In this document: piece by piece, positions 9,718 to 60,798 of the stretch
Layout of the letters: the number at the start of each line of letters is the position of its first letter
Position numbering within the stretch: the first letter of the stretch is position 1
Origin: an uncultured Acidimicrobiia bacterium
GTDB taxonomy: Bacteria; Acidobacteriota; Terriglobia; Versatilivoradales; Versatilivoraceae
NCBI GenBank assembly: GCA_963752385.1
Contig: CAVVYL010000060.1
Span: 9,133-73,132, forward strand
DNA length: 64,000 bases
Direction: 5' to 3'
Made by a program: the position numbers and the translations under genes
The notes under the pieces: generated by a model
The model's database searches: none
What the model was told of the DNA's origin: nothing
Seen by the model: the letters and a program-made list of their open reading frames with translations, nothing else

Positions 9718-10392
9718 ATGAACTTCAAAATCATCGACCTGACCCACAAGCTTCTGCCGGGTGAAGAACAATACCCTGTCGAGGTCAAGCAACGAGGCAA
9801 GCCGCGCGAGACGCCAACCGGCGACATCATGCATGACGTTTACATGTGGTCGCATTCCGGAACTCATGTCGAGGTATCGCTTCACTTCTATGCAGGAGGC
9901 AAAGACACGTCAGATTTTCCACCGGAGACCTTCGTAGGATCAGCCATTCGTCTAGACTTCCGGCACAAGCAGACGAACGAGCCGATCACGCTGGCGGAGA
10001 TTCAGGCCGCCGGCGACGTTCGGGAAGGAGACATCGTTGTCCTCTGGGAGGGGCGAGACCATCTCTATCGCACCAAGGAATCCCACTCCCGCCCCTATCT
10101 CACCGAAGAGGCGGCGCGCTGGCTGGCACTCGAGAAGAAGATCAAGTTGCTGGGAACGGACTCTTCTGGATTTGAGGTGCGTGGCGTCAGCACGCATCCC
10201 AACCACCACCTGTTTTTCAAGGCGGGTGTTGACATCCCAGTTGTGGAATGCCTCTGCCGCCTGGATAAGATTCCCAGCCAGCGATTTTTCTTCGTTGGGT
10301 TGCCTATTCCCGCGAAAGGGCTAGATGCATCGCCGATCCGGGCCATTGCGCTGGACATCGAAGGATGTTGGCCATCGTTGCGTTTCGAATAG
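9718..10392 (+). CDS. cyclase-family protein (kynurenine-formamidase-like metal hydrolase)
   Basis: HSGTHVE (HxGTHxD-like) motif, about 224 aa. The ATG at 9718 lies inside the GTG-started ORF 9685..10392. Confidence 0.55.
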   Translation: MNFKIIDLTHKLLPGEEQYPVEVKQRGKPRETPTGDIMHDVYMWSHSGTHVEVSLHFYAGGKDTSDFPPETFVGSAIRLDFRHKQTNEPITLAEIQAAGDVREGDIVVLWEGRDHLYRTKESHSRPYLTEEAARWLALEKKIKLLGTDSSGFEVRGVSTHPNHHLFFKAGVDIPVVECLCRLDKIPSQRFFFVGLPIPAKGLDASPIRAIALDIEGCWPSLRFE

Positions 10393-48985: not shown

Positions 48986-51885
48986 TCACCGGAAGTTCTC
49001 TACCAGCATCAGATCACTGCCCTGCTGATCGATCTGCGAGTACAAGACCCAGCGCTCATCAGGCGAAACAGAAAGGCCAACAGACACCTGCCTTTCTGTC
49101 ATGGCGATCTCCCTGATCTTTCCCGTTTCAAAATCAAAAAACCGGATTGAAGAGCCCACCGAACCTTCTCGTGGGGCACAAAAATAAATGCCCTTATTGC
49201 CGACGGAAAACGTTCGAGTGAATAGAGTCTCGATGAGCCGCACCTCTGGCCCGCCTCCGACAGGAGCTTTCCACAGGCTGCCTACTTGGGTTTTGTCCCC
49301 TTCCTTAGTGTAATAAACAGAGGTTCCGTCTGGCGACTCGAAGCCTTCCACTCCCCCGTCCTGGGTCACCCGGATCGCTTCTCCTCCGTCGGCTGGCATC
49401 TTCCATATTTGATTCTCGCCACTGCGGTTTGAGGTGAAGTAAATCCATTTTCCATCTCGCGACCAGTGCGGAATGGCGTTCTCCGAAGGAGGACTGGTCA
49501 AGCGCTGCGGCTGGCCACCGTTGGCGTTGACGAGATAGACCTCATACTGTCCCTCTTTGTTTGAATCAAAAGCAATCCGCTCCCCATCGGGGGACCAGCG
49601 CGGCGATCCATTCACTGGACCATCAAAAGAAGTCAACGGCACGGCGTTGGAGCCATCGCTGTCGCACACCCAGATCTGATAGCTGCCTGAACGGTCGGAA
49701 GCAAAAGCGATCTTCTTCCCGTCAGGAGAATAGTCAGGATTACCGTCATTTCGTGTGGTGGGGATAAAGTTGACTGGCCGACTGGCTTTTCCATATGGAG
49801 TCGGGACTTCCACACGCCAGATGTTCTCCTGGGTCAGGCGCTGGACGTAAACAAGGCGGTGTCCCTGACGTGAAATGACCGGCGAACGATTATCTTCTCC
49901 TGGAAATACGAGCGGCTCGGGAATCCTGGCTCCAATGAGGGCAATTCTTGAAAGACTGGAACCTACACTCCACCCCAAGTCAGGAGAGGAAGCAAAGACA
50001 AGCGCTTGGCCATCTGGGGTCCAGGTAGCCGAGCTGACGCCAGCAGGGGGCAACTGTTCGGGCTCCCCCACTGGTTCCAGATTGCCAGAATGAGAGAGCA
50101 GATGGAGATTGGCTGTGCCAGCCCAGCTGACGATCCGAATGAAAGCTAGCGTGCCACTCTTCGGTGAAAATGCGGGATTGATATCACCGATCGATTTCGG
50201 TGTAGGGAAGGTTAGCCTCCGCTTCTCACGGGTGCCCAGTGAGAGGGAGAACAGGCTGAAGGGTTCGGCCGCGGAAGGCTTGTCGACGATGACAAGCGAA
50301 CTGCCGTCGGCGGACCAGGCCAGATAAGTGCTGAATGGATTGACACCACAGGTCAGCGAAGGCGAATGTTTGAATTTCAGTCAGTTTGGAGGCAGCCCCT
50401 CCCAGGGCCGACATCAACATCACAGTCGCCTTCCCTCCTGGAAGCCTCTGAAGGAAAGCGATTTGCCGACCGTCCGGCGACCAGGCAGGGCTAAACTCGG
50501 CAGCCGGATCACGGGTGAGACGCAGCGGCTCCGAGGAACCAATCAATTTGACGTAGATATCGAAGTTGTCGCTCTGGTCCTTATTCGCTACGAAGGCCAC
50601 CTGGTTGCCGTCCGGTGAAAAGGCAGGAGCTGTTTCAAAACCCGGATAACTGGTCAAGGGAACGGGCCTTAGAGGAGTCTGTGGCACTTGGGTAGTAGTT
50701 CGGCCGAACCAGATGGCAGTGGCTCCAATCCCTAAAATAACCAACAACAGAGTGATCCACTTCAGACTTTGGTGATGCCTGCTGTGGTGTAATCATTGGG
50801 ACTTCCCCGCTGGAGTCCAGTTCCTCCCTCAGCTCCAACAGGTTTATCTTGACGTCACCCAAGCTCTGCCAGCGACGTTCACGATCCTTGCGCAAGCATC
50901 GGTCAATGGTCCTTTCGAGGTCTTTGGGAACGCCCTTGACGACTTCACTGGCCGGCTTGGGCTCCTCACGCAAGATCGCTGTCAATATCGCCAGATTCGA
51001 CTCGCCCGTAAACACCTTCTGCCCTGTGACCATCTCATAAAGCACCGCCCCAAAGCTGAAGATGTCACTCCGGGCATCAACCTTTTTTCCTTCTGCCTGC
51101 TCCGGCGACATGTAAGCTGCCGTCCCAACAATCGTCCCTTCTTCCGTCTCGAGCTGCGCCGTGCGCGTCTCCTCTTCGTCACCCGCGACTTCAGTCAGTT
51201 TGGCCAGACCGAAGTCCAGTACCTTCACCAGGCCCTCATCAGTCACCATTACATTGGTCGGCTTCAGGTCGCGATGGATGATCCCGCCTGAATGAGCTTT
51301 GGCCAGGGCGTCGGCCATCTGGACAGCGAGCTTGAGCGTCTCATTCAGTGGCAGTCCCTTACGCGGGATCAACTGATTCAGCGTCTTGCCCGCAACATAC
51401 TCCATCACGACGAAGTCAATGCCGCCTTCGCGTCCGACATCGTGAATCGTGATAATGTTGGGATGGTTCAGTGCCGACGCTGCCCGAGCTTCCTGAATGA
51501 ATCGCCGCTTGCGTTCTGGGTCGCTCACCTGCTCTGCCGGCAATACCTTGATGGCTACAAACCGCTGTAGCCGCGTATCGCGTGCCTTGTAGACGACGCC
51601 CATCCCGCCGGTCCCCAGCAGAGAGAGGATCTGGTAAGAGCCGATCCGTTGCCCTATTAGCGACTGGGGTTCTTCTTGCGCAAACGTCTTCGTCCCTACC
51701 TCTAGGGCCGGTTCCTCCATGAATCGGTCCGCGCTCTGTTCAGACCGGAGCAGAGACTCCACTTCTTGACGCAGAGCTTCGTCGCCAGCGCAAGCCTTCT
51801 CCAGGAATGCGGCCCGCTCGTTCTCTGCCAGCTCAAGGGCTGAGTGACAAACCTTTTCAATCTGTCGCCAACGTTCAGGAGTCAT
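48986..51885 (-). pseudogene. Ser/Thr protein kinase fused to TolB-like/WD40 beta-propeller repeats, interrupted by at least two frameshifts
   Basis: ORF 50635..51885 has an N-terminal helical leader plus full kinase catalytic domain (…VAIKVL…, HRDLKPTNVMV, DFGLAK, …SPEQ…). ORFs 50226..50747 and 48986..50071 in two other frames carry TolB-like repeats (…FSPDGNQVAFV…, …YSPDGKKIAFASDRSG…QIW…). The arrangement is collinear with a roughly 960-aa kinase-TolB protein. Confidence 0.65.
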
Positions 51886-52870: not shown

Positions 52871-53344
52871 TTAGCTCGCGTCAACCACAATCTCCGATTT
52901 GAGCGAGTTAGCGATGAAGCACTCCTCGTGTGCGGAATGATGTATCGACCGCAACTCGTCAGCGGAAGGCAGCCTGTCCACGGAGAATTCAACCTTGGGA
53001 CGCAACGTAATGCGGGTGATCAGAAACTTCCCATCTGCGTTTTTCTCCATTGTCCCGAAGGCCTCGTCCACATAGCTTTCCACAATAAATCCCCGTTTCG
53101 CGGCAATCGACAAGAACCACAGCATATGACAGCTCGAGGCGGATGCCACTAAGGCCTCCTCAGGGTCGACAGCTTCGACAACGGAGTACGGCACCGGAAC
53201 CACCATCGGCGATGAGGAGGCTTTGACTGTGACTCCGCCATCGAAGGACCACTCGTGACCTCGGCTATAGCGATTGTCGGAGAACTTGGCCCCACTCCGG
53301 TTCCATGTGATTCGAGCTTCGTATCGGTGCACACTGACCTCCAT
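52871..53344 (-). CDS. OsmC/Ohr-family protein
   Basis: 157 aa with …ASASSCHMLWFLSIAAKRGF…, the OsmC-like Cys-containing helix. ATG start. Confidence 0.5.
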   Translation of the reverse strand: MEVSVHRYEARITWNRSGAKFSDNRYSRGHEWSFDGGVTVKASSSPMVVPVPYSVVEAVDPEEALVASASSCHMLWFLSIAAKRGFIVESYVDEAFGTMEKNADGKFLITRITLRPKVEFSVDRLPSADELRSIHHSAHEECFIANSLKSEIVVDAS

Positions 53345-53507: not shown

Positions 53508-54350
53508 CTACTCGATTTCCAGAATCTTCAACGTATCCCGGAAAAACATCTGTTCCATCATCTCCATGTTGAGTCTGGGCAAGGCGCTCCCGGAAAGCAT
53601 GTCGTTCAGCTTGCGCATCCCCTCAAGGCTGGCGTCAACCGTGGTAAACGGATAATCGCTCCCGAACAGAAGTTTGTTCCAGACTCCGTATTCCTGAAGC
53701 AGCATCAACGAATGATAGAGCTGGAAAGGCCGGTAATGGAGGGCCGAACAATCCGCGTACACATTCGGATGCTTGCGAATGGTGACGACGCACTCGCCTT
53801 CATAGGGATGGGAGAGATGAGCCATGATGATCTTCACCTCAGGAAACCGAATGGCGACGTCGTCAACCAGGCGGGGAAGGGTACATTCCAGCGGGGCCTT
53901 GTCCACAAACGTTGTCCCGGTGTGAAGCAGAACCGGCAACCGGTGTCGAGTAGCGTATTCCCACAAATAGTCCAACGTGCGCTCGTTGGGCTTGAAGCCG
54001 GCATACATGGGAAGAAGCTTGATTCCCTTCATCCTCAGGTCCTGGTGCCCCTGAATCAATTCCTCCTGCCAACCCGGTTGAGTGGGATCGACACAGAGAA
54101 AGGGGACGAGGTTATCTGGATGCTCGTGTACGTACGCAGCGACGTCGGCGTCGGGGACCCATAGTCCCGATAACCTGGCTTTGCCGCCAAAGACGATGGT
54201 CTTGCCGCACTTTGAAGCGGCGGCGTGATACTCCTCCCAGCGCACCGTCAGATCCACTTCGGTACTTCGCGCGCGGCGCGCCTGTTCCCGAAAGCCGTCG
54301 GTGAAGTGTTCGGGATATTTGAAGTAATGGCTATGAACGTCGACGAGCAT
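53508..54350 (-). CDS. amidohydrolase-2 family (TIM-barrel metal-dependent hydrolase)
   Basis: MLVDVHSHYF… (HxH metal motif), …LLHTG…, …IIMAHLSHPY…, …FGSDYPF…. ATG at 54350 inside a GTG-started ORF. Confidence 0.6.
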   Translation of the reverse strand: MLVDVHSHYFKYPEHFTDGFREQARRARSTEVDLTVRWEEYHAAASKCGKTIVFGGKARLSGLWVPDADVAAYVHEHPDNLVPFLCVDPTQPGWQEELIQGHQDLRMKGIKLLPMYAGFKPNERTLDYLWEYATRHRLPVLLHTGTTFVDKAPLECTLPRLVDDVAIRFPEVKIIMAHLSHPYEGECVVTIRKHPNVYADCSALHYRPFQLYHSLMLLQEYGVWNKLLFGSDYPFTTVDASLEGMRKLNDMLSGSALPRLNMEMMEQMFFRDTLKILEIE

Positions 54351-54410
54351 ATTGATCAGTATCGATGACTCAATTCTTTGAGTCACCCGGAAGGCCCAAA
54401 AAATCGTTCA

Positions 54411-55175
54411 TCAACTTTGCCCCGGTGCTAAAGCGGCTTTCATCTGTGAGAGCGCCAGCTCGTTTACTTTTCTTGCCTGCTCGATTTGCTCCAGGATCAG
54501 CTTCCTCTTGAGGCCGTCTTCTTCCTGCTGTCTGGTGAGCACATACATCTCTAAGCTGCTGCCACCCTGACGCAACTTGTCTCTCAGGTCAATTCGCTTC
54601 TGTGCCTTCTCGTCGAGTTGCTCCAGATCCGCCAGTGCCTTGTCGCGTATCCTGGCGCTATCTTTCAACAAGATCAAACTTGCGAGAGAAAGCCGATCGC
54701 TCGCGGAAAGAGCTGGGTCGATCATCAACTCTTTGATCTCGCTTCGTACCTCCGGAGATAACCGGACTAACGCTTGTGGGGCCGTCACTAGCGCTCGGAC
54801 TGATTCAACTAACCGCTTTACCCCCACATCGAAACTGGTCGCCAGGTCGATCCGCTGCAACCCTATCAACTGATACACCATGTCTTTGGGAACGACGGTC
54901 CGTCGGATTTCGACGGGTAGGACCGGTTTGTTGGCTTCCTGCGCAATGTCGAGTTCCTTCCGCACGTTGTCCGATGCAGCGGCATTGGGTGAGAGGGCAA
55001 CCAAAACGACGTCGGCAGCTTCGATAGCATCGACGATTTGCCTACGCCACTTGGCGCCGCCCAGGATGTCTTCACGATCGATCCAAACTGCGACCGCTGC
55101 GGCCTCAAGCTCCCGGACCAGCCTCTCAATAATCTGCGTGTCCTGTCGTGAATAGCTTATGAACACATGTCCCAT
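54411..55175 (-). CDS. TIR-domain protein with C-terminal coiled-coil region
   Basis: N-terminal …VFISYSRQD… and …VLVALSPNAAASDNVRKELDIAQ… (the SxN…S…EL motif with the conserved Glu). The C-terminal 120 aa are heptad-like and charged. ATG 55175, alternative TTG 55187. Confidence 0.65.
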   Translation of the reverse strand: MGHVFISYSRQDTQIIERLVRELEAAAVAVWIDREDILGGAKWRRQIVDAIEAADVVLVALSPNAAASDNVRKELDIAQEANKPVLPVEIRRTVVPKDMVYQLIGLQRIDLATSFDVGVKRLVESVRALVTAPQALVRLSPEVRSEIKELMIDPALSASDRLSLASLILLKDSARIRDKALADLEQLDEKAQKRIDLRDKLRQGGSSLEMYVLTRQQEEDGLKRKLILEQIEQARKVNELALSQMKAALAPGQS

Positions 55176-55363
55176 TCCGGTCTCCAATCAATGCTGGAAG
55201 ACTTGACGACTCCGGTTCAGCCTGCCCGCATTTTTAGGCAGGGCGGCTGCAACAGGCGGGCTAGCCCGTCCTGTTAAGTGGGCCGCAAGCAAGTCGCAGC
55301 AGTCGCAAGGGCCTTAAGTCCAGGTTCAACAGAGTGTGATCGAGTGGGATACGACGGCAAGAC

Positions 55364-56017
55364 TCACTGCCGCTCATAGAACGGGGGCGGCTCGATGCCC
55401 AAAGCGCGCAGGTAGACATACCCTTGGCCGCGATGATGGATCTCGTTGTCGATGACGTAGAAGAGTAGATCGTAGACCCGCCCCTCGTACTGACCGAAGG
55501 CTGTGGTTGTCTCCTGGAAGCGTTGCCGCGGGATCTGCCGCCAGAGGGCATCGATCTGTTTCGTGCTCTCATCCCAGAGCCGAAGAATCTCCTCCCGCGG
55601 CCGGGGCTCGCGAGTTATGGACTGATCCCAATCTCCAGTGACGATACCACGGATCATGGGCAGGGCCATGCTGAGCATCTCAAGGGCCAAGGCTCCGAAA
55701 GGGCGCATGGAGCCCACGGAGAAGGTGAAGAGCCGATCCTCAGGGAAGGCTTCGATCACGCGGCGAGTCAACCGGCGGTGGCCCTGCCAATGTTCCAGCA
55801 GGGCTTCGGGAGTGATGACCACTGCGGCCATCAGGGATCTACTGGCGCCTGTGGCAGTGGCGACTGCCGTGCTGGCAGCCTTTTTGGCTTGCTTGGCAAT
55901 ACCGGGCGTCGAACGCTTCCTGCCGGTCTTCTTCTTAGCTGTGCTCTTTTTGCTCGTGGCACGAGAAGACACCGATATTTTGGACGCAGACTTCTTACCT
56001 CCTCTTTTTGCTGGCAT
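55364..56017 (-). CDS. DinB/YfiT-like (DinB_2) family protein with Lys-rich histone-H1-like N-terminal tail
   Basis: N-terminal 70 aa are KKSASK…KKKTGRK…AKQAKKAAS. C-domain …EIHHRGQGYVYLRALG… is DinB_2-like. Confidence 0.5.
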   Translation of the reverse strand: MPAKRGGKKSASKISVSSRATSKKSTAKKKTGRKRSTPGIAKQAKKAASTAVATATGASRSLMAAVVITPEALLEHWQGHRRLTRRVIEAFPEDRLFTFSVGSMRPFGALALEMLSMALPMIRGIVTGDWDQSITREPRPREEILRLWDESTKQIDALWRQIPRQRFQETTTAFGQYEGRVYDLLFYVIDNEIHHRGQGYVYLRALGIEPPPFYERQ

Positions 56018-56348
56018 TCTTTTGCTCCTTCCGCTGGATCATCAATTGACTTTTCCGATGTCAAGGACCTTACTCTACCATACCCGTGCCATAAGGGAAG
56101 TGGCCCCACCGGCCCTTTTTCGCGCTTCCGGTTGAGCACTGGGTGATGCGGCGAATTCACCACGAAATCGTTCCAATAGATCGTACAAATCCTCGTCCGA
56201 GATAGGCGACAGAGCCTAGCAAGACTCTCATAGGCCAGCCTTCCCCGTTCCGTAGTTACTTCGTTTCCTTGTTTCGGGCTTGCCATAAGGGACGGGCGGG
56301 CATCTTTGCTCCGCTTTCCGCAGTTCGAGGTTGGATTTTACACCATGA

Positions 56349-58712
56349 TCACTGGCTGACCGGCTTCGGCTTGGCGAGGTGCTCGATCAGTTCGAGCACT
56401 GCACGGGCAGCCTTCTTGGCTGCCGGTTGGCCGCGCGCGATGTACGGGTCGAGGACGAACCGCGTCGTGTCGGAGACCGAGCTCCACTGCGTCCCTCCTT
56501 GCGATCGCTTGAAGACGTCACGGAACGATCGTTCGATGGCCGGTAGGTCCTTCGGCAGGGTGTTGCGCGCCACGGCCTCGTACAGGCGCAGCTCCGGCTC
56601 GGCGACCAGGCTCCAGAAGTCCGGGCTGGACTGGTTCTTCCCCCGGACACTGCGCCGCGCCTCTTCGAACAGTTCCGGAGGCAGACCTTTCCATTTCGCC
56701 GTCCCGGCGCGCAGAACGAGCTCCGCGGCAATCAGATTGATGGCCGGGTAAAACAGATCAGCGGCGTCGCGCTTGCGGCCGATCTCCAGCGCGCGCTGGT
56801 AGTGCGCCGCCATGGCCTCGACCGCGTGTCGTGCAGCTTCGGGGCGCCCGACGCCCGCTTCGAGCATCGCGAGGCGTTTCATCGCGGAGCCACGAAGGCT
56901 TTCGCGTTCCGAAGTGTTCCGAAACGCCGTCAACTGCTTGAAGACCTTCATCTCGTCCTTGATGGTCGTGCGAGCTGATGCCATGGCGACGCGTAGCTTC
57001 GCGCTGGCGGCAGCGCGCTGTCGCGCCACGGTCGGGCCGCCGGAGGCGCGGCGCCTGCGCCCGCCATCGTCTGCCGGGGCGGCCGCCAGCCGCTCGCGCT
57101 TCGACTGCGCCTCCTGAACGGCGTTCCACGCGTGCCGGATCCGCAGGTTGCTCAGCTGCTCGAGAATTCGGAACGAGACGTCTCCCTCCGCGTGCTCGAT
57201 CGCGGTTTCGTACCAGCGAATGGTGCTGGGCACGTCGTCTGCGGCGCTGTAGGCACGCGCGAAGAGCTCAGCCACCTCGCTCGCGTCCCAGCGCATCTTC
57301 TGCCACCGTTGCTCGAGCCGCCGCACGCGCTCGAGCTGATACGCCGCGTCGTATCCCTGAAACGTGGACTGCACCACCAAGGTCTCGAGGGCCAGCTGCA
57401 GCGCGGGTACCGACCCCACGTCCTCGAACTCGTCATCGGGCGCCTGCGGTGTCTTGCTCCAGCCGCCCCGGCCCCCGAACGTCCAATCGGGATCGCCGTA
57501 ACACTGATAGGCCGCCCACGTGTTGCCGTCGAACTCGAATGCCTTGGCGCGCGCCTCAGCCACGGCGTCGATGAGTCGCTGGCCTCTGAGCAGCGCGTCG
57601 TAGAACGTGGTCGCGAACGCGCTCGCGGCCTGATCGTCCACGGCCCAGCCGGCGGCGACGACGCACCGAACACCGATTTCGATGAGCGCTTGAGCGACGC
57701 TCGACGCAAACGCCGCGCGGTCGTACAGGCCGCGTTGCGAGGGACGGAGCAGGGAGCTGCGCGAGCCGGCCGCCAGGTGGCAGCAATTGACGAACACGAG
57801 CTCCGGCACGACGCGCATCGCCTTGATTTCGTTGGCGCCGAGGAAGGTGTCGTTCGACAACACCACGCCGCCACGGTTTCCTTTCCTGCTCAGCGGCTCG
57901 CCGTGCCCGGCGACGTGAACCACCCGCCAATTCCGCTCGAACAACGCATCCACGACCTGGCGGGCGTCGGGTCCGTCCTGGAGCTGACCCCCGGCAAACA
58001 AGTCCTTCACGCAGTCGCGATCGAGCCCCGGATTGGACGTGAGGAGACCGAAGACGTCCTTGGCCTCCTGCAGCGCGCCGGGCAGCGGCGGATACTCGGG
58101 CGGGCAGCGCGGCTCGCCAATCACGAGGATCGAAGCCTGCGCATCGGCGTCCGTGACCTGTGGGCGGAAAGTCTCGGTCCTGTACTTCCGGAGCAGCTTC
58201 GATCGAATCGCCCATGGTGGCCGCGGCGCCTGCGTCGCAACCGCGTCGTCGAGCAGCTCCCAGGGAATGCCGGCCGTGCCCTCATCCACTTCGATCTGAG
58301 TCTCACCCGAGCCGGCGAGAAAAGCCTCCAGCTCGATCGGAACCAGCAGGTTGTAGAGCGTGCGGCCGATCTGTGCCTCGGTATTCGGCTCGCTCGAAGC
58401 CGTCGCCACGAGATCGCGTAACAGCCGCGGCTGCGTCGCTTGAGCTCGTACTTCGGTGCGCGCGCGCTTGGTGTCGAGCGCGTACGCAATGAACGTGTTG
58501 CCGTTCACGTCTCGACGGGTTTCCGCCGTGATGAAGTCGTACTCAACGCCGCGATACCCCGACTCGAGTGGTCGTCGCAGCGATCCCGTCCCGGCCACAA
58601 TGGGCTCCGCGACACGGTAGCGAGACGGTGTCGCTTTGGCCTGCATCTTCAGCGCTTCCCACGCTTCGGTGGCGCGGCTCAAATACAACTCGATGAAGCG
58701 GAGCTCGCGCAC
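56349..58712 (-). CDS. CHAT-domain (caspase-fold) peptidase with C-terminal helical/TPR-like region; probably the C-terminal part of one larger frameshifted gene
   Basis: …GIPWELLDD…, His-Cys dyad context …VVHVAGHGEP… and …ELVFVNCCHLAAG…. The reading frame stays open upstream of the annotated GTG start into 58543..60798. Very high GC. Confidence 0.65.
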   Translation of the reverse strand: MRELRFIELYLSRATEAWEALKMQAKATPSRYRVAEPIVAGTGSLRRPLESGYRGVEYDFITAETRRDVNGNTFIAYALDTKRARTEVRAQATQPRLLRDLVATASSEPNTEAQIGRTLYNLLVPIELEAFLAGSGETQIEVDEGTAGIPWELLDDAVATQAPRPPWAIRSKLLRKYRTETFRPQVTDADAQASILVIGEPRCPPEYPPLPGALQEAKDVFGLLTSNPGLDRDCVKDLFAGGQLQDGPDARQVVDALFERNWRVVHVAGHGEPLSRKGNRGGVVLSNDTFLGANEIKAMRVVPELVFVNCCHLAAGSRSSLLRPSQRGLYDRAAFASSVAQALIEIGVRCVVAAGWAVDDQAASAFATTFYDALLRGQRLIDAVAEARAKAFEFDGNTWAAYQCYGDPDWTFGGRGGWSKTPQAPDDEFEDVGSVPALQLALETLVVQSTFQGYDAAYQLERVRRLEQRWQKMRWDASEVAELFARAYSAADDVPSTIRWYETAIEHAEGDVSFRILEQLSNLRIRHAWNAVQEAQSKRERLAAAPADDGGRRRRASGGPTVARQRAAASAKLRVAMASARTTIKDEMKVFKQLTAFRNTSERESLRGSAMKRLAMLEAGVGRPEAARHAVEAMAAHYQRALEIGRKRDAADLFYPAINLIAAELVLRAGTAKWKGLPPELFEEARRSVRGKNQSSPDFWSLVAEPELRLYEAVARNTLPKDLPAIERSFRDVFKRSQGGTQWSSVSDTTRFVLDPYIARGQPAAKKAARAVLELIEHLAKPKPVSQ

Positions 58713-60798
58713 CTCCGGCAGGCGCTGGCGCGCCGAGGCTCGACGAATCAGCTCGTTGGCTTCGTAGCACGCCTTGTGCGATGAGCTGCGCAGCCTGACC
58801 GGGCGTCACGCCGGTACCGCCGCTGGACAGCAGCGTGGTCGCCAGCCGCAGCGGCGCGATGGGGCCGCCCCCCTTCTCGGCCACCCGCTCGGCCCAGGCA
58901 ATCACCGCCTGCCGCACCGTAAGAACGATGTGCGCCGACTGCAGCTTGCCTTCCTGACCAAGGCCGATGACGATCACCGCTTCTGGGCGTGGCGCCGGCC
59001 AGAACTTGCCCTTCGGAATTTGACGATTGATGAAGATGCGATGCGTACCCGGCTCGACCGGGTACACGCCGAGGTCGAGCGCATTGGTCATCGCGCGATC
59101 GAGCAACCGGTCGACGACCTTTTCGGTTCCAGTGAGACGGGTCGCGCGGTAGTGCCCAACCAGCAGCGGACGCTCTTCGAAGGTCAGATCGCCGTTGATG
59201 ACGGTGATTCCAAGTTTCGCCTCGGGCTCAGCCGCGACCGCCCGTGCGGCCCGACCCGTAAACCGCGCTCGCTTGGCCGCGACCGGTCTCCCTCCGGCGA
59301 TGGCCGGCACTGACACTCCGGCCGCACCCGCGCGGAGCAGACGCCGATCGGGCAATTGCTGGGCGGGATCGAGCGGCGCCAGCTTCTGCGCCTGGTCGTT
59401 GAGCGCCGCGACGAGAAACGCCACGGTCTCCGGCTGCGCGAAGAAGTTGACGTGGGTGACGTCGTCGCGGTCGATGTTGCCCCCTGGCCCGAAGCACCCG
59501 ATGCGCGATCCCGGGATGAACGTGCCGCCCGACGGGTCGACGCGCCATCCCCCTTCCGACGGCACCACAAGATCGTTGGCCGTGTTGAAGAACTGATCGA
59601 TGCCCATATCGAGCAGACGCTCAAGCACGGTGCTGCCGGGGTTGTAGTTGGCAGCCAACACGGAGTACCGGTCCGCGGGCGGGCCGGGCGGAGACTGGAG
59701 CTCGCGGATCAGATCGCCGTCCCCATCCATGGAGTGAATGCCCGGCAGGTCGCCCGACGCATGACGCGCGATCCACACGAGACCGTGCGCCACGAACTCG
59801 GCGCCGGTCGTGAACGGGTTCTCAGGAAACAGCTCGAGCAGATTGGCGACCCACCCGACCGTGTCCTCCCACCGCGACGGCGTGGCGAGCGGCGTGCCTT
59901 CATTGGGCGCTGCGACGATGATGGCGCGGCCGAGCGTGAAGCGGGACGCCAGCGCGCCGAACGCGTCCCGCCGCTCGACGAGGTTCCGCAATACCAGCCC
60001 GCCGCGGGAATGTGTGATGACGTCGAAGGTGAAAGCCTTGTCCGGCAGCTCCTTCAGGAGCATCCGGACGTTTTCTTCCGGCGTGCGGCTGATGGAAAAG
60101 TGATCGAACGCGAAGATGCGGTCGCCGTACAGCGGCGCCACTTCCTCGAAGAAGTTCGATTTCGCCAGCGAAGCGAACGCGCCGGAGGCGTTCGAAAAGG
60201 TGCCGTGCACGAGAAGCAGGGACCGCTCCGTGGAAGACGGCTTGCCAGCGTCGAGTCGGCCACCTACGAGCCCCCCCTTCGTGACCTTGAGCCAGCCTTC
60301 TTTGAGTCCCTTGGACTTCCAGACGGCCGTTTCGAAGGCCAGAGCGAGCTTCGACAGCACAAACCCCACGGCGGCGTCGAGGGCGGCGCCTGCGACCTTG
60401 ACGATTACGGCCTTGATGGCCTTGCTGACCACTCCGCGGCTGGTCGTGAGATCGCTCCCCCCGAGGTCCGGCCGAATGGGCGCGATGAATCGCACTTCGA
60501 CCGGCCCGCCGCGGGTGCGGCTGGTTGTCGTGCGTGGCGCATGAAAGGTCAGTGCTCCAGAGGCATGGCGCAGGGCGAGCACGGCAGATTCGCCCGGCGA
60601 TAACTCGTAGGTGATGTCGAGCGCGCTCGGTGCAGCGGCGGCGCCGCGGACGGCGGGCCGAGCTTGCGCGACGAACTCCTCTGTGCTCTTCGCTTGAGTG
60701 AGGAACTCAGGCGGCAGGCTCGGAATACCGGCCCCCAGCCCGCGGGTCGTTGCGGCTGGTTGGATGTTCCAACCGGGAGAATTCAGTTTGATCGCCAT
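58543..60798 (-). CDS. alpha/beta-hydrolase (lipase/esterase-like, PGAP1/DUF676-type) protein; its 3' end (about 58543-58790) looks out of frame and continues in frame with the CHAT ORF
   Basis: ATG 60798 with GAGGAG ribosome-binding site. …LLLVHGTFSNASGAF… and …FDVITHSRGGLV… (GxSxG nucleophile elbow). The last roughly 80 codons are Arg/Ala/Gly-rich nonsense, typical of an off-frame high-GC read. Confidence 0.55.
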   Translation of the reverse strand: MAIKLNSPGWNIQPAATTRGLGAGIPSLPPEFLTQAKSTEEFVAQARPAVRGAAAAPSALDITYELSPGESAVLALRHASGALTFHAPRTTTSRTRGGPVEVRFIAPIRPDLGGSDLTTSRGVVSKAIKAVIVKVAGAALDAAVGFVLSKLALAFETAVWKSKGLKEGWLKVTKGGLVGGRLDAGKPSSTERSLLLVHGTFSNASGAFASLAKSNFFEEVAPLYGDRIFAFDHFSISRTPEENVRMLLKELPDKAFTFDVITHSRGGLVLRNLVERRDAFGALASRFTLGRAIIVAAPNEGTPLATPSRWEDTVGWVANLLELFPENPFTTGAEFVAHGLVWIARHASGDLPGIHSMDGDGDLIRELQSPPGPPADRYSVLAANYNPGSTVLERLLDMGIDQFFNTANDLVVPSEGGWRVDPSGGTFIPGSRIGCFGPGGNIDRDDVTHVNFFAQPETVAFLVAALNDQAQKLAPLDPAQQLPDRRLLRAGAAGVSVPAIAGGRPVAAKRARFTGRAARAVAAEPEAKLGITVINGDLTFEERPLLVGHYRATRLTGTEKVVDRLLDRAMTNALDLGVYPVEPGTHRIFINRQIPKGKFWPAPRPEAVIVIGLGQEGKLQSAHIVLTVRQAVIAWAERVAEKGGGPIAPLRLATTLLSSGGTGVTPGQAAQLIAQGVLRSQRADSSSLGAPAPAGGARAPLHRVVFEPRHRSVGSAEDAGQSDTVSLPCRGAHCGRDGIAATTTRVGVSRR

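What the first reader, a model, noticed from the sequence alone, without database searches (positions are those of the whole stretch)
53508..55187. TIR-domain protein (NADase-type motif plus coiled coil) tightly linked to an amidohydrolase-2 gene
The protein's N-terminal 130 aa carry the canonical TIR box VFISYS and the S.N…S…EL motif (…SPNAAASDNVRKEL…) with the conserved catalytic Glu of NAD-cleaving TIR domains. The C-terminal half is a charged heptad-like coiled coil. The next gene, 60 bp downstream on the same strand, is a TIM-barrel metal-dependent hydrolase (HxH…, amidohydrolase-2). No SIR2/SLOG/Macro partner (ThsA-like) is present, so this is not a recognisable Thoeris. TIR plus amidohydrolase is not a pairing I know from described defence systems. 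The TIR gene also looks somewhat lower in GC than the flanks.
Basis: partly seen in the sequence, partly recalled or inferred. Interest (0 to 1): 0.65.

Follow-up and report, generated by a model that had tools for sequence, protein, structure and literature searches.

The report
Lone TIR gene beside unrelated hydrolase
The window does hold a real TIR-domain gene with the catalytic glutamate next to a metal-hydrolase gene, but the two are neighbours by accident, so what remains is an ordinary, rare stand-alone bacterial TIR protein and not a new two-gene defence system.

Summary
The sequence observations hold. On the minus strand, 54411-55175 encodes a 254-aa protein with an N-terminal TIR domain (Pfam TIR_2, E=5e-25) and an invariant Glu74. 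Its C-terminal half is predicted to be helical. An Amidohydro_2 gene (53508-54350, HxH motif) starts 60 nt downstream.

- The pair occurs only in two near-identical strains.
- Five independent loci with full-length TIR relatives (about 50-79% identity) have no amidohydrolase nearby and no neighbour in common.
- None of 160 loci with a related TIR domain has a homologue of this amidohydrolase in its flanks.
- The amidohydrolase has more than 5,000 relatives, the best 120 at 75-93% identity. Orthologues sit among catabolic genes with no TIR.
- In a close relative (amidohydrolase 93% identical), a 785-bp deletion removed the TIR gene and left DinB-amidohydrolase-OsmC intact.

The TIR protein belongs to a tiny family. 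Its C-terminal module has 6 hits among 1.84 billion representatives, and both halves are under purifying selection (dN/dS about 0.3). Its motif is NxxxE rather than WxxxE. I therefore predict an NAD+ hydrolase that is switched on by oligomerisation, not a cyclase that makes a signal. The low-GC claim does not hold. Interest is low.

The parts
54411..55175 (-). Stand-alone TIR-domain gene, 254 aa plus stop. Start is ATG 55175 with GGAG 6 nt upstream; the longest ORF begins at TTG 55187.
   Evidence: ORF list, DNA, Pfam TIR_2 E=5.4e-25. Full-length relatives at about 50-99% identity. dN/dS about 0.3.
54783..55175 (-). TIR domain, residues 1-131
54954..54968 (-). Helix alpha-C motif N70-V-R-K-E74. 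E74 (54954-54956) is the putative catalytic Glu. N70 (54966-54968) stands where WxxxE TIR domains have Trp.
   Evidence: E74 is invariant and N70 is conserved in at least 90% of 64 relatives. Alignment to Cat1 places N70 against its Trp. Role of Trp and Glu in AbTir: preprint 10.1101/2022.05.07.491051.
54414..54782 (-). Orphan C-terminal helical module, residues 132-254: a short helix at 141-151 and two long helices at 158-201 and 207-249
   Evidence: Model. No Pfam hit up to E=10 and no PHROG hit. Only 6 hits among 1.84 billion representatives; the three of full length are TIR family members and the other three are short fragments, one of which still carries the end of the TIR domain. dN/dS 0.29-0.49.
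54351..54410 (-). 60-nt spacer between the TIR stop and the amidohydrolase start. No terminator-like site was predicted on this strand.
   Evidence: DNA, terminator scan.
53508..54350 (-). Amidohydro_2 (TIM-barrel metal-dependent hydrolase) gene, 280 aa, with HxH at residues 6-8. I judge it an unrelated, conserved metabolic neighbour.
   Evidence: Pfam PF04909 E=3.9e-28. 5,155 relatives, the best 120 at 75-93% identity. Orthologues lie beside lactonase-type (SGL), short-chain dehydrogenase, enolase-superfamily (MR_MLE), RraA-like, IclR and MFS genes. No PADLOC or NCBIfam hit.
54496..55279 (-). Segment missing in the related locus L093. It covers the TIR upstream region and about codons 1-227. 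The last codons of TIR (about 25-28) survive there as a remnant.
   Evidence: blastn of L093 against the window, junction alignment, remnant translation LEQIEQARNVNELAPSQVKAAL.

Best explanation
The locus holds two functionally unrelated genes.

(1) The amidohydrolase is a highly conserved catabolic metal-hydrolase of an acidobacterial-type genome. Its substrate is unknown. In this lineage its stable neighbours are DinB and OsmC.

(2) The TIR gene is a rare, dispensable, single-gene accessory module. It has an N-terminal TIR domain with the catalytic Glu and an orphan C-terminal helical module that travels only with this TIR.

Most likely mechanism (inferred, not shown). The protein is kept inactive as a monomer or small oligomer. 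A trigger acts through the C-terminal helices, for example a phage or other foreign protein, or concentration-dependent self-association. This clusters the TIR domains head to tail, which completes the composite active site, as in SARM1, AbTir, SPARTA and SpbK. Glu74 then cleaves NAD+. The aromatic residue needed for cyclisation is replaced by Asn70 and no receptor or effector gene is linked. I therefore expect nicotinamide plus linear ADP-ribose as products, so the protein would be an NAD+-depleting, abortive-infection or toxin-type effector and not a signal generator.

What is shown: the domain identity, the conserved Glu, the lack of any conserved partner, dispensability, and purifying selection on both halves. 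What is inferred: the NADase activity, the product, the trigger and the defence role.
For: Adjacency is incidental:
- The pair occurs only in L004 and L005, whose TIR is 98-99% identical.
- Five independent family loci lack it: L001 at 79%, L002 at 77%, L003 at 52%, L006 at 47% and L189 at 52%. Their downstream genes are unrelated to one another.
- tblastn of the amidohydrolase against 174 loci (1.3 Mb) still detects a 35%-identical paralogue. It finds nothing next to any of the 160 loci with related TIR domains.
- A Pfam census of 101 same-strand neighbours shows no family in more than 5 of them, and Amidohydro_2 is not among the 25 families listed.
- The amidohydrolase has 5,155 relatives and sits in catabolic contexts without TIR.
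- L093 kept DinB-amidohydrolase-OsmC after a 785-bp deletion of TIR.

TIR as an effector-type NADase:
- TIR_2 at 88.7 bits; E74 invariant.
- Fold matches SARM1, TIR-1 and SPARTA.
- The best PADLOC profiles are the effector TIRs of short-Argonaute and SAVED systems (E about 1e-13). ThsB profiles are weaker (1.6e-6).
- Asn stands at the position where 12 of 12 cyclase TIRs carry an aromatic residue.

A maintained gene: dN/dS is about 0.3 in both halves.

Accessory nature:
- Very small family.
- Transposase, recombinase or toxin-antitoxin genes lie near L002 and L003.
- Three indels within about 8 kb among close strains.

Precedent for a single-gene TIR NADase with a small docking domain: SpbK (PMC12847820).
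Against: - No biochemical or phage data exist for this protein.
- Trp to Asn in WxxxE lowers activity in AbTir (W204A), so this family could be weakly active or inactive.
- The gene is not in a recognised defence island, matches no PADLOC system over its full length and has no full-length relatives on viral contigs.
- Deletion in L093 and a possible frameshift in L005 could mean the gene is decaying in this lineage rather than being used.
- No terminator-like site was predicted between TIR and the amidohydrolase, so co-transcription in this strain is not excluded.
- Only five independent contexts were available, two of them on contigs under 7 kb.
Confidence: 0.6

Rival explanations
1. TIR and amidohydrolase form a two-gene defence cassette. 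The TIR makes an NAD-derived product and the amidohydrolase processes it or acts as the effector.
For: Same strand, 60-nt gap and no predicted terminator. The order is kept in L004 and L005. The paper library holds no paper with 'TIR domain', 'amidohydrolase' and 'anti-phage' together.
Against: L004 and L005 are the same lineage (97% DNA identity), so they are not independent evidence. The pair is absent in 5 of 5 independent family loci and in 160 loci with related TIR domains. The amidohydrolase is a conserved, catabolism-linked gene with thousands of orthologues and no TIR nearby. It matches no defence profile. It survives unchanged after loss of TIR in L093.
Confidence: 0.04
2. The TIR protein is non-catalytic. 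It is either a protein-interaction or scaffold module like MyD88 or MAL, or a decaying remnant without function.
Against: The catalytic Glu is invariant across 64 relatives down to about 30% identity, which is not expected if catalysis were irrelevant. dN/dS of about 0.3 in both halves argues against decay of the family as a whole. Non-aromatic residues at this position do occur among ADPR-producing TIRs.
Confidence: 0.2
3. The TIR protein is a ThsB-like signal generator. Its effector is encoded elsewhere or is not yet recognised.
For: Weak matches to the ThsB_TIR Pfam profile (26.8 bits) and to NCBIfam Thoeris type III ThcB4 (39 bits).
Against: ThcB4 scores 39 bits against a cut-off of 220. 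No ThsA-type or other conserved neighbour appears in any context. It lacks the aromatic residue found in all tested cyclase TIRs. Its best profile matches are to effector TIRs.
Confidence: 0.1
4. The TIR gene is part of a larger conflict island together with the upstream CHAT/TPR-S and DUF7379 genes.
For: All are on the same strand within about 6 kb. CHAT and TPR-S are domains of conflict systems. The region varies between strains.
Against: L004 has TIR without the CHAT/DUF7379 block, and L093 has the block without TIR. GC differs (0.67 against 0.55). A DinB gene lies between them. None of the other family loci carries CHAT or DUF7379.
Confidence: 0.04

Closest known systems
SpbK of Bacillus subtilis ICEBs1 (single-gene TIR NADase abortive-infection defence)
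   Different: No sequence match at E<=0.01. The domain order is reversed: TIR is N-terminal here, whereas the docking domain is N-terminal in SpbK. The accessory module is an unrelated orphan. SpbK also makes N1-cADPR, whereas this protein lacks the aromatic residue linked to cyclisation. Its trigger is unknown.
Coiled-coil plus TIR proteins of bacteria (AbTir, BtTir, TcpB/BtpA, TcpC, TcpS)
   Different: In those proteins the coiled coil is N-terminal to the TIR, the motif is WxxxE, and the products are 2'cADPR or 3'cADPR. Here the helices are C-terminal and the motif is NxxxE. No sequence-level relationship exists outside the generic TIR domain.
Effector TIR domains of SPARTA (TIR-APAZ), CBASS TIR-SAVED, and SARM1
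   Same: These are the best profile and fold matches for the TIR domain: PADLOC Aga_TIR E=2.6e-13 and SAVED_TIR E=6.6e-13, and Foldseek SARM1 and SPARTA. They deplete NAD+ once oligomerised.
   Different: Those TIRs are fused or paired with APAZ/Argonaute, SAVED, or ARM-SAM sensor modules. None of these is present here.
Thoeris (ThsB TIR plus ThsA)
   Same: A TIR domain protein of similar size, with a weak ThsB_TIR Pfam match.
   Different: No ThsA (SIR2-SLOG or Macro) gene nearby. NCBIfam ThcB4 is far below its cut-off. No aromatic residue for cyclase chemistry.

Membership tests
Pfam TIR_2 (PF13676) domain family | Profile score above the gathering cut-off (28 bits) | tested here: met
   88.7 bits, E=5.4e-25, residues 8-127 covering profile positions 1-122 of 122.
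Pfam TIR_2 (PF13676) domain family | TIR (flavodoxin-like) fold | tested here: met
Catalytic (NADase) TIR domains | Conserved Glu in helix alpha-C | tested here: met
   E74 is invariant in 64 relatives. It lies in predicted helix 69-80 and aligns with the Glu of Cat1's WCWDE motif.
Catalytic (NADase) TIR domains | Aromatic residue four positions before the Glu (WxxxE), needed for cyclase products | tested here: not met
   Asn70, conserved in at least 90% of relatives. An aromatic residue is present in 12 of 12 cyclase TIRs.
Catalytic (NADase) TIR domains | Glu-dependent NAD+ cleavage | not testable with these tools
   Needs an enzyme assay.
Thoeris | ThsB family membership by curated profile | tested here: not met
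   NCBIfam ThcB4 scores 39 bits against a cut-off of 220. PADLOC ThsB profiles match the TIR core only, at E>=1.6e-6.
Thoeris | Adjacent ThsA-type effector (SIR2-SLOG, Macro or TM) | tested here: not met
   The neighbours are OsmC, Amidohydro_2, DinB, CHAT/TPR-S and DUF7379. Annotation of the syntenic loci L004 and L005 shows none either.
Proposed TIR plus Amidohydro_2 two-gene system | The gene pair is conserved in independent genomes | tested here: not met
   0 of 5 independent family loci, 0 of 160 loci with related TIR domains, and 0 of 7 amidohydrolase-orthologue loci. TIR is deleted and the amidohydrolase kept in L093.
Proposed TIR plus Amidohydro_2 two-gene system | Similar phyletic spread of both partners | tested here: not met
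   About 14 full-length TIR family clusters against 5,155 amidohydrolase relatives.
SpbK-like single-gene TIR defence | Sequence homology to SpbK, including its docking domain | tested here: not met
   phmmer against PDB sequences at E<=0.01 returns only Cat1 and TRR-2. SpbK is matched by fold only, over the TIR domain.
SpbK-like single-gene TIR defence | Protection against phage; activation by a phage protein | not testable with these tools
   Needs phage challenge experiments.
Pfam Amidohydro_2 (PF04909) | Profile score above the cut-off (26.4 bits) and an N-terminal HxH metal motif | tested here: met
   99.5 bits. DVHSHYF at residues 4-10.

The most novel reading that the evidence does not exclude
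The TIR-plus-helical-module family is a previously undescribed single-gene NAD+-depleting immune sensor-effector. Its orphan C-terminal helices would recognise a phage protein and drive TIR clustering, as in SpbK but with an unrelated sensor and reversed domain order. It would make linear ADPR through an NxxxE active site.
Probability: 0.3. Interest if true: 0.4.

Novelty: new member of a known kind. Interest (0 to 1): 0.2.

Why it matters
It does not hold, so that lead can be dropped.

What remains adds one small, rare family to the large set of bacterial stand-alone TIR proteins. It has two modest points of interest:
- A conserved NxxxE variant of the active-site motif. It could be used to test the rule that the aromatic residue decides between cyclase and hydrolase chemistry.
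- An orphan helical module that is a candidate trigger-sensing or oligomerisation domain.

The case also shows that a tight, same-strand gene pair can be a pure accident. A natural deletion in a sister strain gives an unusually direct control for this.

Tried and rejected
- Looked for a conserved partner of the TIR family in five independent contexts. None is shared, and the downstream genes are not homologous.
- Scanned one genome per species (genome contigs) and JGI metagenomes with the family alignment. They served as a negative control for amidohydrolase linkage but added no full-length family members.
- Viral contigs held only weak TIR-domain hits.
- Searched for relatives of the C-terminal module alone in 1.84 billion representatives, in Pfam up to E=10 and in PHROGs. 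Nothing appeared outside the family.
- Searched for mobile-element borders, repeats, tRNA genes or RNA families around the gene. Nothing meaningful turned up.
- The heptad periodicity test was not significant.
- The low-GC claim is rejected.
- Linkage to the CHAT/DUF7379 block is rejected, because the two are present and absent independently of each other.
- The closest solved relative of the amidohydrolase is an uncharacterised protein (3irs, E=2e-8), so no substrate could be assigned.

Full report
**What is there**

Both genes lie on the minus strand.

The upstream ORF runs 54411-55187 from a TTG. The ATG at 55175 (MGHVFISYS...) has a GGAG 6 nt upstream and is the likely start, giving 254 aa. 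Pfam TIR_2 matches residues 8-127 end to end (E=5.4e-25, 88.7 bits, cut-off 28). Weaker overlapping matches are TIR and ThsB_TIR.

The downstream ORF most likely starts at ATG 54350 (MLVDVHSHYF...), 60 nt after the TIR stop. It ends at 53508 and encodes 280 aa. It matches Amidohydro_2 at E=3.9e-28 and has the HxH motif.

The other neighbours on the same strand are:
- OsmC (52871-53344)
- DinB (55364-56017)
- a CHAT/TPR-S protein (56349-58712)
- a DUF7379 protein (58543-60798)

**The GC claim**

Gene-level GC is 0.549 for TIR, 0.555 for the amidohydrolase and 0.551 for OsmC. There is no dip at the TIR gene. The real compositional anomaly is a 0.67-GC block upstream.

**Is the pair conserved?**

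Full-length relatives of the TIR protein are few. About 14 clusters among 5.8 billion cover at least 90% of the query.

*Contexts of the TIR family.* The two nearly identical proteins (L004 at 99%, L005 at 98%) come from the same lineage, with 97% DNA identity over more than 10 kb. They repeat the order DinB-TIR-amidohydrolase-OsmC. Every independent family member differs:

| Locus | TIR identity | Neighbours |
|---|---|---|
| L001 | 79% | Between a DUF1801 gene and a convergent 2-hydroxyacid dehydrogenase fragment |
| L002 | 77% | Between a PIN_10/DUF5615 gene and a convergent rhomboid gene, with a transposase and a Gp49/HTH_37 pair nearby |
| L003 | 52% | Between a two-component system and a GerE-type gene, with a transposase and a serine recombinase nearby |
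| L006 | 47% | Between FAD-dependent enzyme genes |
| L189 | 52% | Followed by a DUF3293-type gene |

The downstream genes of L003, L006 and L189 are not homologous to each other.

*Wider controls.* I fetched 80 loci from one-genome-per-species contigs and 80 from metagenomes that encode the nearest TIR domains.
- tblastn with the amidohydrolase detects a 35%-identical paralogue in L089 and L090. It found nothing in the flanks of any of these 160 loci.
- A Pfam census of 101 same-strand neighbours showed no family in more than 5 of them. Amidohydro_2 was not among the 25 families listed.

*The reverse direction.* The amidohydrolase has 5,155 relatives, and the best 120 are 75-93% identical. 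Sources name some of them as from Acidobacteria or Bryobacterales. Orthologues at 78-84% identity sit among lactonase-type (SGL), short-chain dehydrogenase, enolase-superfamily (MR_MLE), RraA-like, IclR, MFS and AstE/AspA-type genes. None has a TIR nearby. It matches no PADLOC or NCBIfam model. Its nearest solved relative is an uncharacterised protein.

**A natural control**

L093 carries an amidohydrolase 93% identical to the window's, in the order DinB, short ORF, amidohydrolase, OsmC. blastn against the window shows that window 55279-54496 is missing there. The junction alignment and the translation of the short ORF (…LEQIEQARNVNELAPSQVKAAL…) show that the last codons of the TIR gene, about 25-28 of them, survive.

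The ancestor therefore had the TIR gene. A 785-bp deletion removed its upstream region and about 227 codons. The amidohydrolase and its neighbours stayed intact. This is direct evidence that the amidohydrolase does not depend on the TIR gene.

L005 has one extra G in a G-run at about codon 27 of TIR. This is either an assembly error or a second inactivation.

**What the TIR protein is**

- *Model.* The AlphaFold2 model (64-sequence alignment, mean pLDDT 87.8, pTM 0.75) has a TIR fold over residues 1-131. A short helix follows at 141-151, then two long helices at 158-201 and 207-249.
- *Active-site motif.* E74 is invariant across 64 relatives. It aligns with the Glu of Cat1's WCWDE motif. The residue four positions earlier is Asn70, conserved in at least 90% of relatives, where WxxxE TIRs have Trp. 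In AbTir, E208A is inactive. W204A lowers activity and cuts 2'cADPR from 93% to 24% of product. All 12 tested cyclase TIRs carry an aromatic residue there (10.1101/2022.05.07.491051; PMC11374754).
- *Defence profiles.* The best PADLOC matches are effector TIRs of short-Argonaute and SAVED systems (E about 1e-13). ThsB profiles are much weaker. NCBIfam ThcB4 is far below its cut-off.
- *C-terminal module.* It has no Pfam or PHROG match. It has only 6 hits among 1.84 billion representatives. The three of full length are TIR family members. The other three are short fragments, one of which still carries the end of the TIR domain.
- *Selection.* Both halves are under purifying selection, with dN/dS of 0.23-0.49 against L001, L002, L006 and L189.
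- *Coiled coil.* A crude heptad test did not beat shuffles. I therefore call the module helical and do not claim a proven coiled coil.

**Most likely mechanism**

This is a stand-alone accessory TIR protein. By analogy with SARM1, AbTir, SPARTA and the single-gene defence SpbK, TIR clustering should build the active site. In SpbK a small non-TIR domain docks on the phage portal and thereby clusters the TIR domains (PMC12847820). Here the C-terminal helices are the candidate for controlling clustering.

Glu74 would then cleave NAD+. With Asn in place of the aromatic residue and no linked receptor, the expected outcome is NAD+ depletion to ADPR plus nicotinamide, not signalling. Only the domain identity, the residue conservation, the lack of a partner, dispensability and selection are shown here. 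The activity, the product, the trigger and a defence role are inferred.

Alternatives are a non-catalytic or decaying protein (about 0.2), a signal generator with an unlinked effector (about 0.1), the two-gene cassette (about 0.04) and linkage to the CHAT/DUF7379 block (about 0.04). The last is contradicted because the two are present and absent independently: L004 has TIR without the block, and L093 has the block without TIR.

**Verdict**

The interpretation as a novel TIR plus amidohydrolase system is not supported, and the adjacency is incidental. What remains is a new member of a known kind, the stand-alone bacterial TIR proteins. It has a rare orphan helical module and an NxxxE motif. Interest is low (0.2).

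Noticed in passing
window 56133-60609: A 4.48-kb high-GC block (0.67 against about 0.55) is a clean indel between near-identical strains. It is absent from L004, where flanks of 97% identity join 60610 to 56132, and present in L005 and L093. It carries a CHAT plus TPR-S ORF and a DUF7379 (alpha/beta-hydrolase-like) ORF. It looks like a horizontally acquired conflict-system module.
   Followed up: partly
window 58543-58820 (minus strand): The DUF7379 ORF (58543-60798) and the CHAT ORF (56349-58712) overlap by 170 nt. The reading frames suggest a single gene of about 1,500 aa split by a frameshift near 58765: ...AQLIAQGV in one frame continues sensibly as YEANELIRRASARQRLPEVRELRFIELY... in the next. 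There is no homopolymer at the site. L005 calls the same 751-aa product. This may be a real pseudogene, programmed frameshifting, or two overlapping genes.
   Followed up: partly
L093 2069-2260, corresponding to window 54495-54411: A sister-strain locus keeps the last codons of the TIR gene, about 25-28 of them, fused to upstream intergenic DNA after a 785-bp deletion. It is called there as a 63-aa ORF.
   Followed up: yes
L005 about 10030-10040, corresponding to window about 55095: The L005 copy of the TIR gene has one extra G in a G-run (GGG to GGGG) at about codon 27, so its called product lacks the VFISYS strand. This is either an assembly error or a second independent inactivation of the gene.
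   Followed up: partly
window 52608/52609: L004 has about 1.1 kb (L004 12565-13654, two ORFs of about 186 aa with no Pfam hit) between sequences that are adjacent in the window. This is a third indel within about 8 kb among close strains, so the region is a variable hot spot.
   Followed up: no
window 55364-56017 (minus strand): The DinB-family protein has a roughly 70-aa Lys/Ser/Ala/Thr-rich, low-complexity N-terminal extension before the DinB domain (Pfam match at residues 72-215). In L004 the corresponding gene is called at 316 aa, because the indel joins it to upstream sequence.
   Followed up: no
window 48986-51885 (minus strand): A Ser/Thr protein kinase gene (50635-51885) is followed on the same strand by ORFs (50226-50747 and 48986-50071). 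The 48986-50071 ORF matches Pfam PD40 beta-propeller repeats. The ORF breaks suggest either one long kinase-propeller gene interrupted by frameshifts or separate genes.
   Followed up: no
whole window: No tRNA gene and no Rfam family at gathering score anywhere in the 64 kb.
   Followed up: yes
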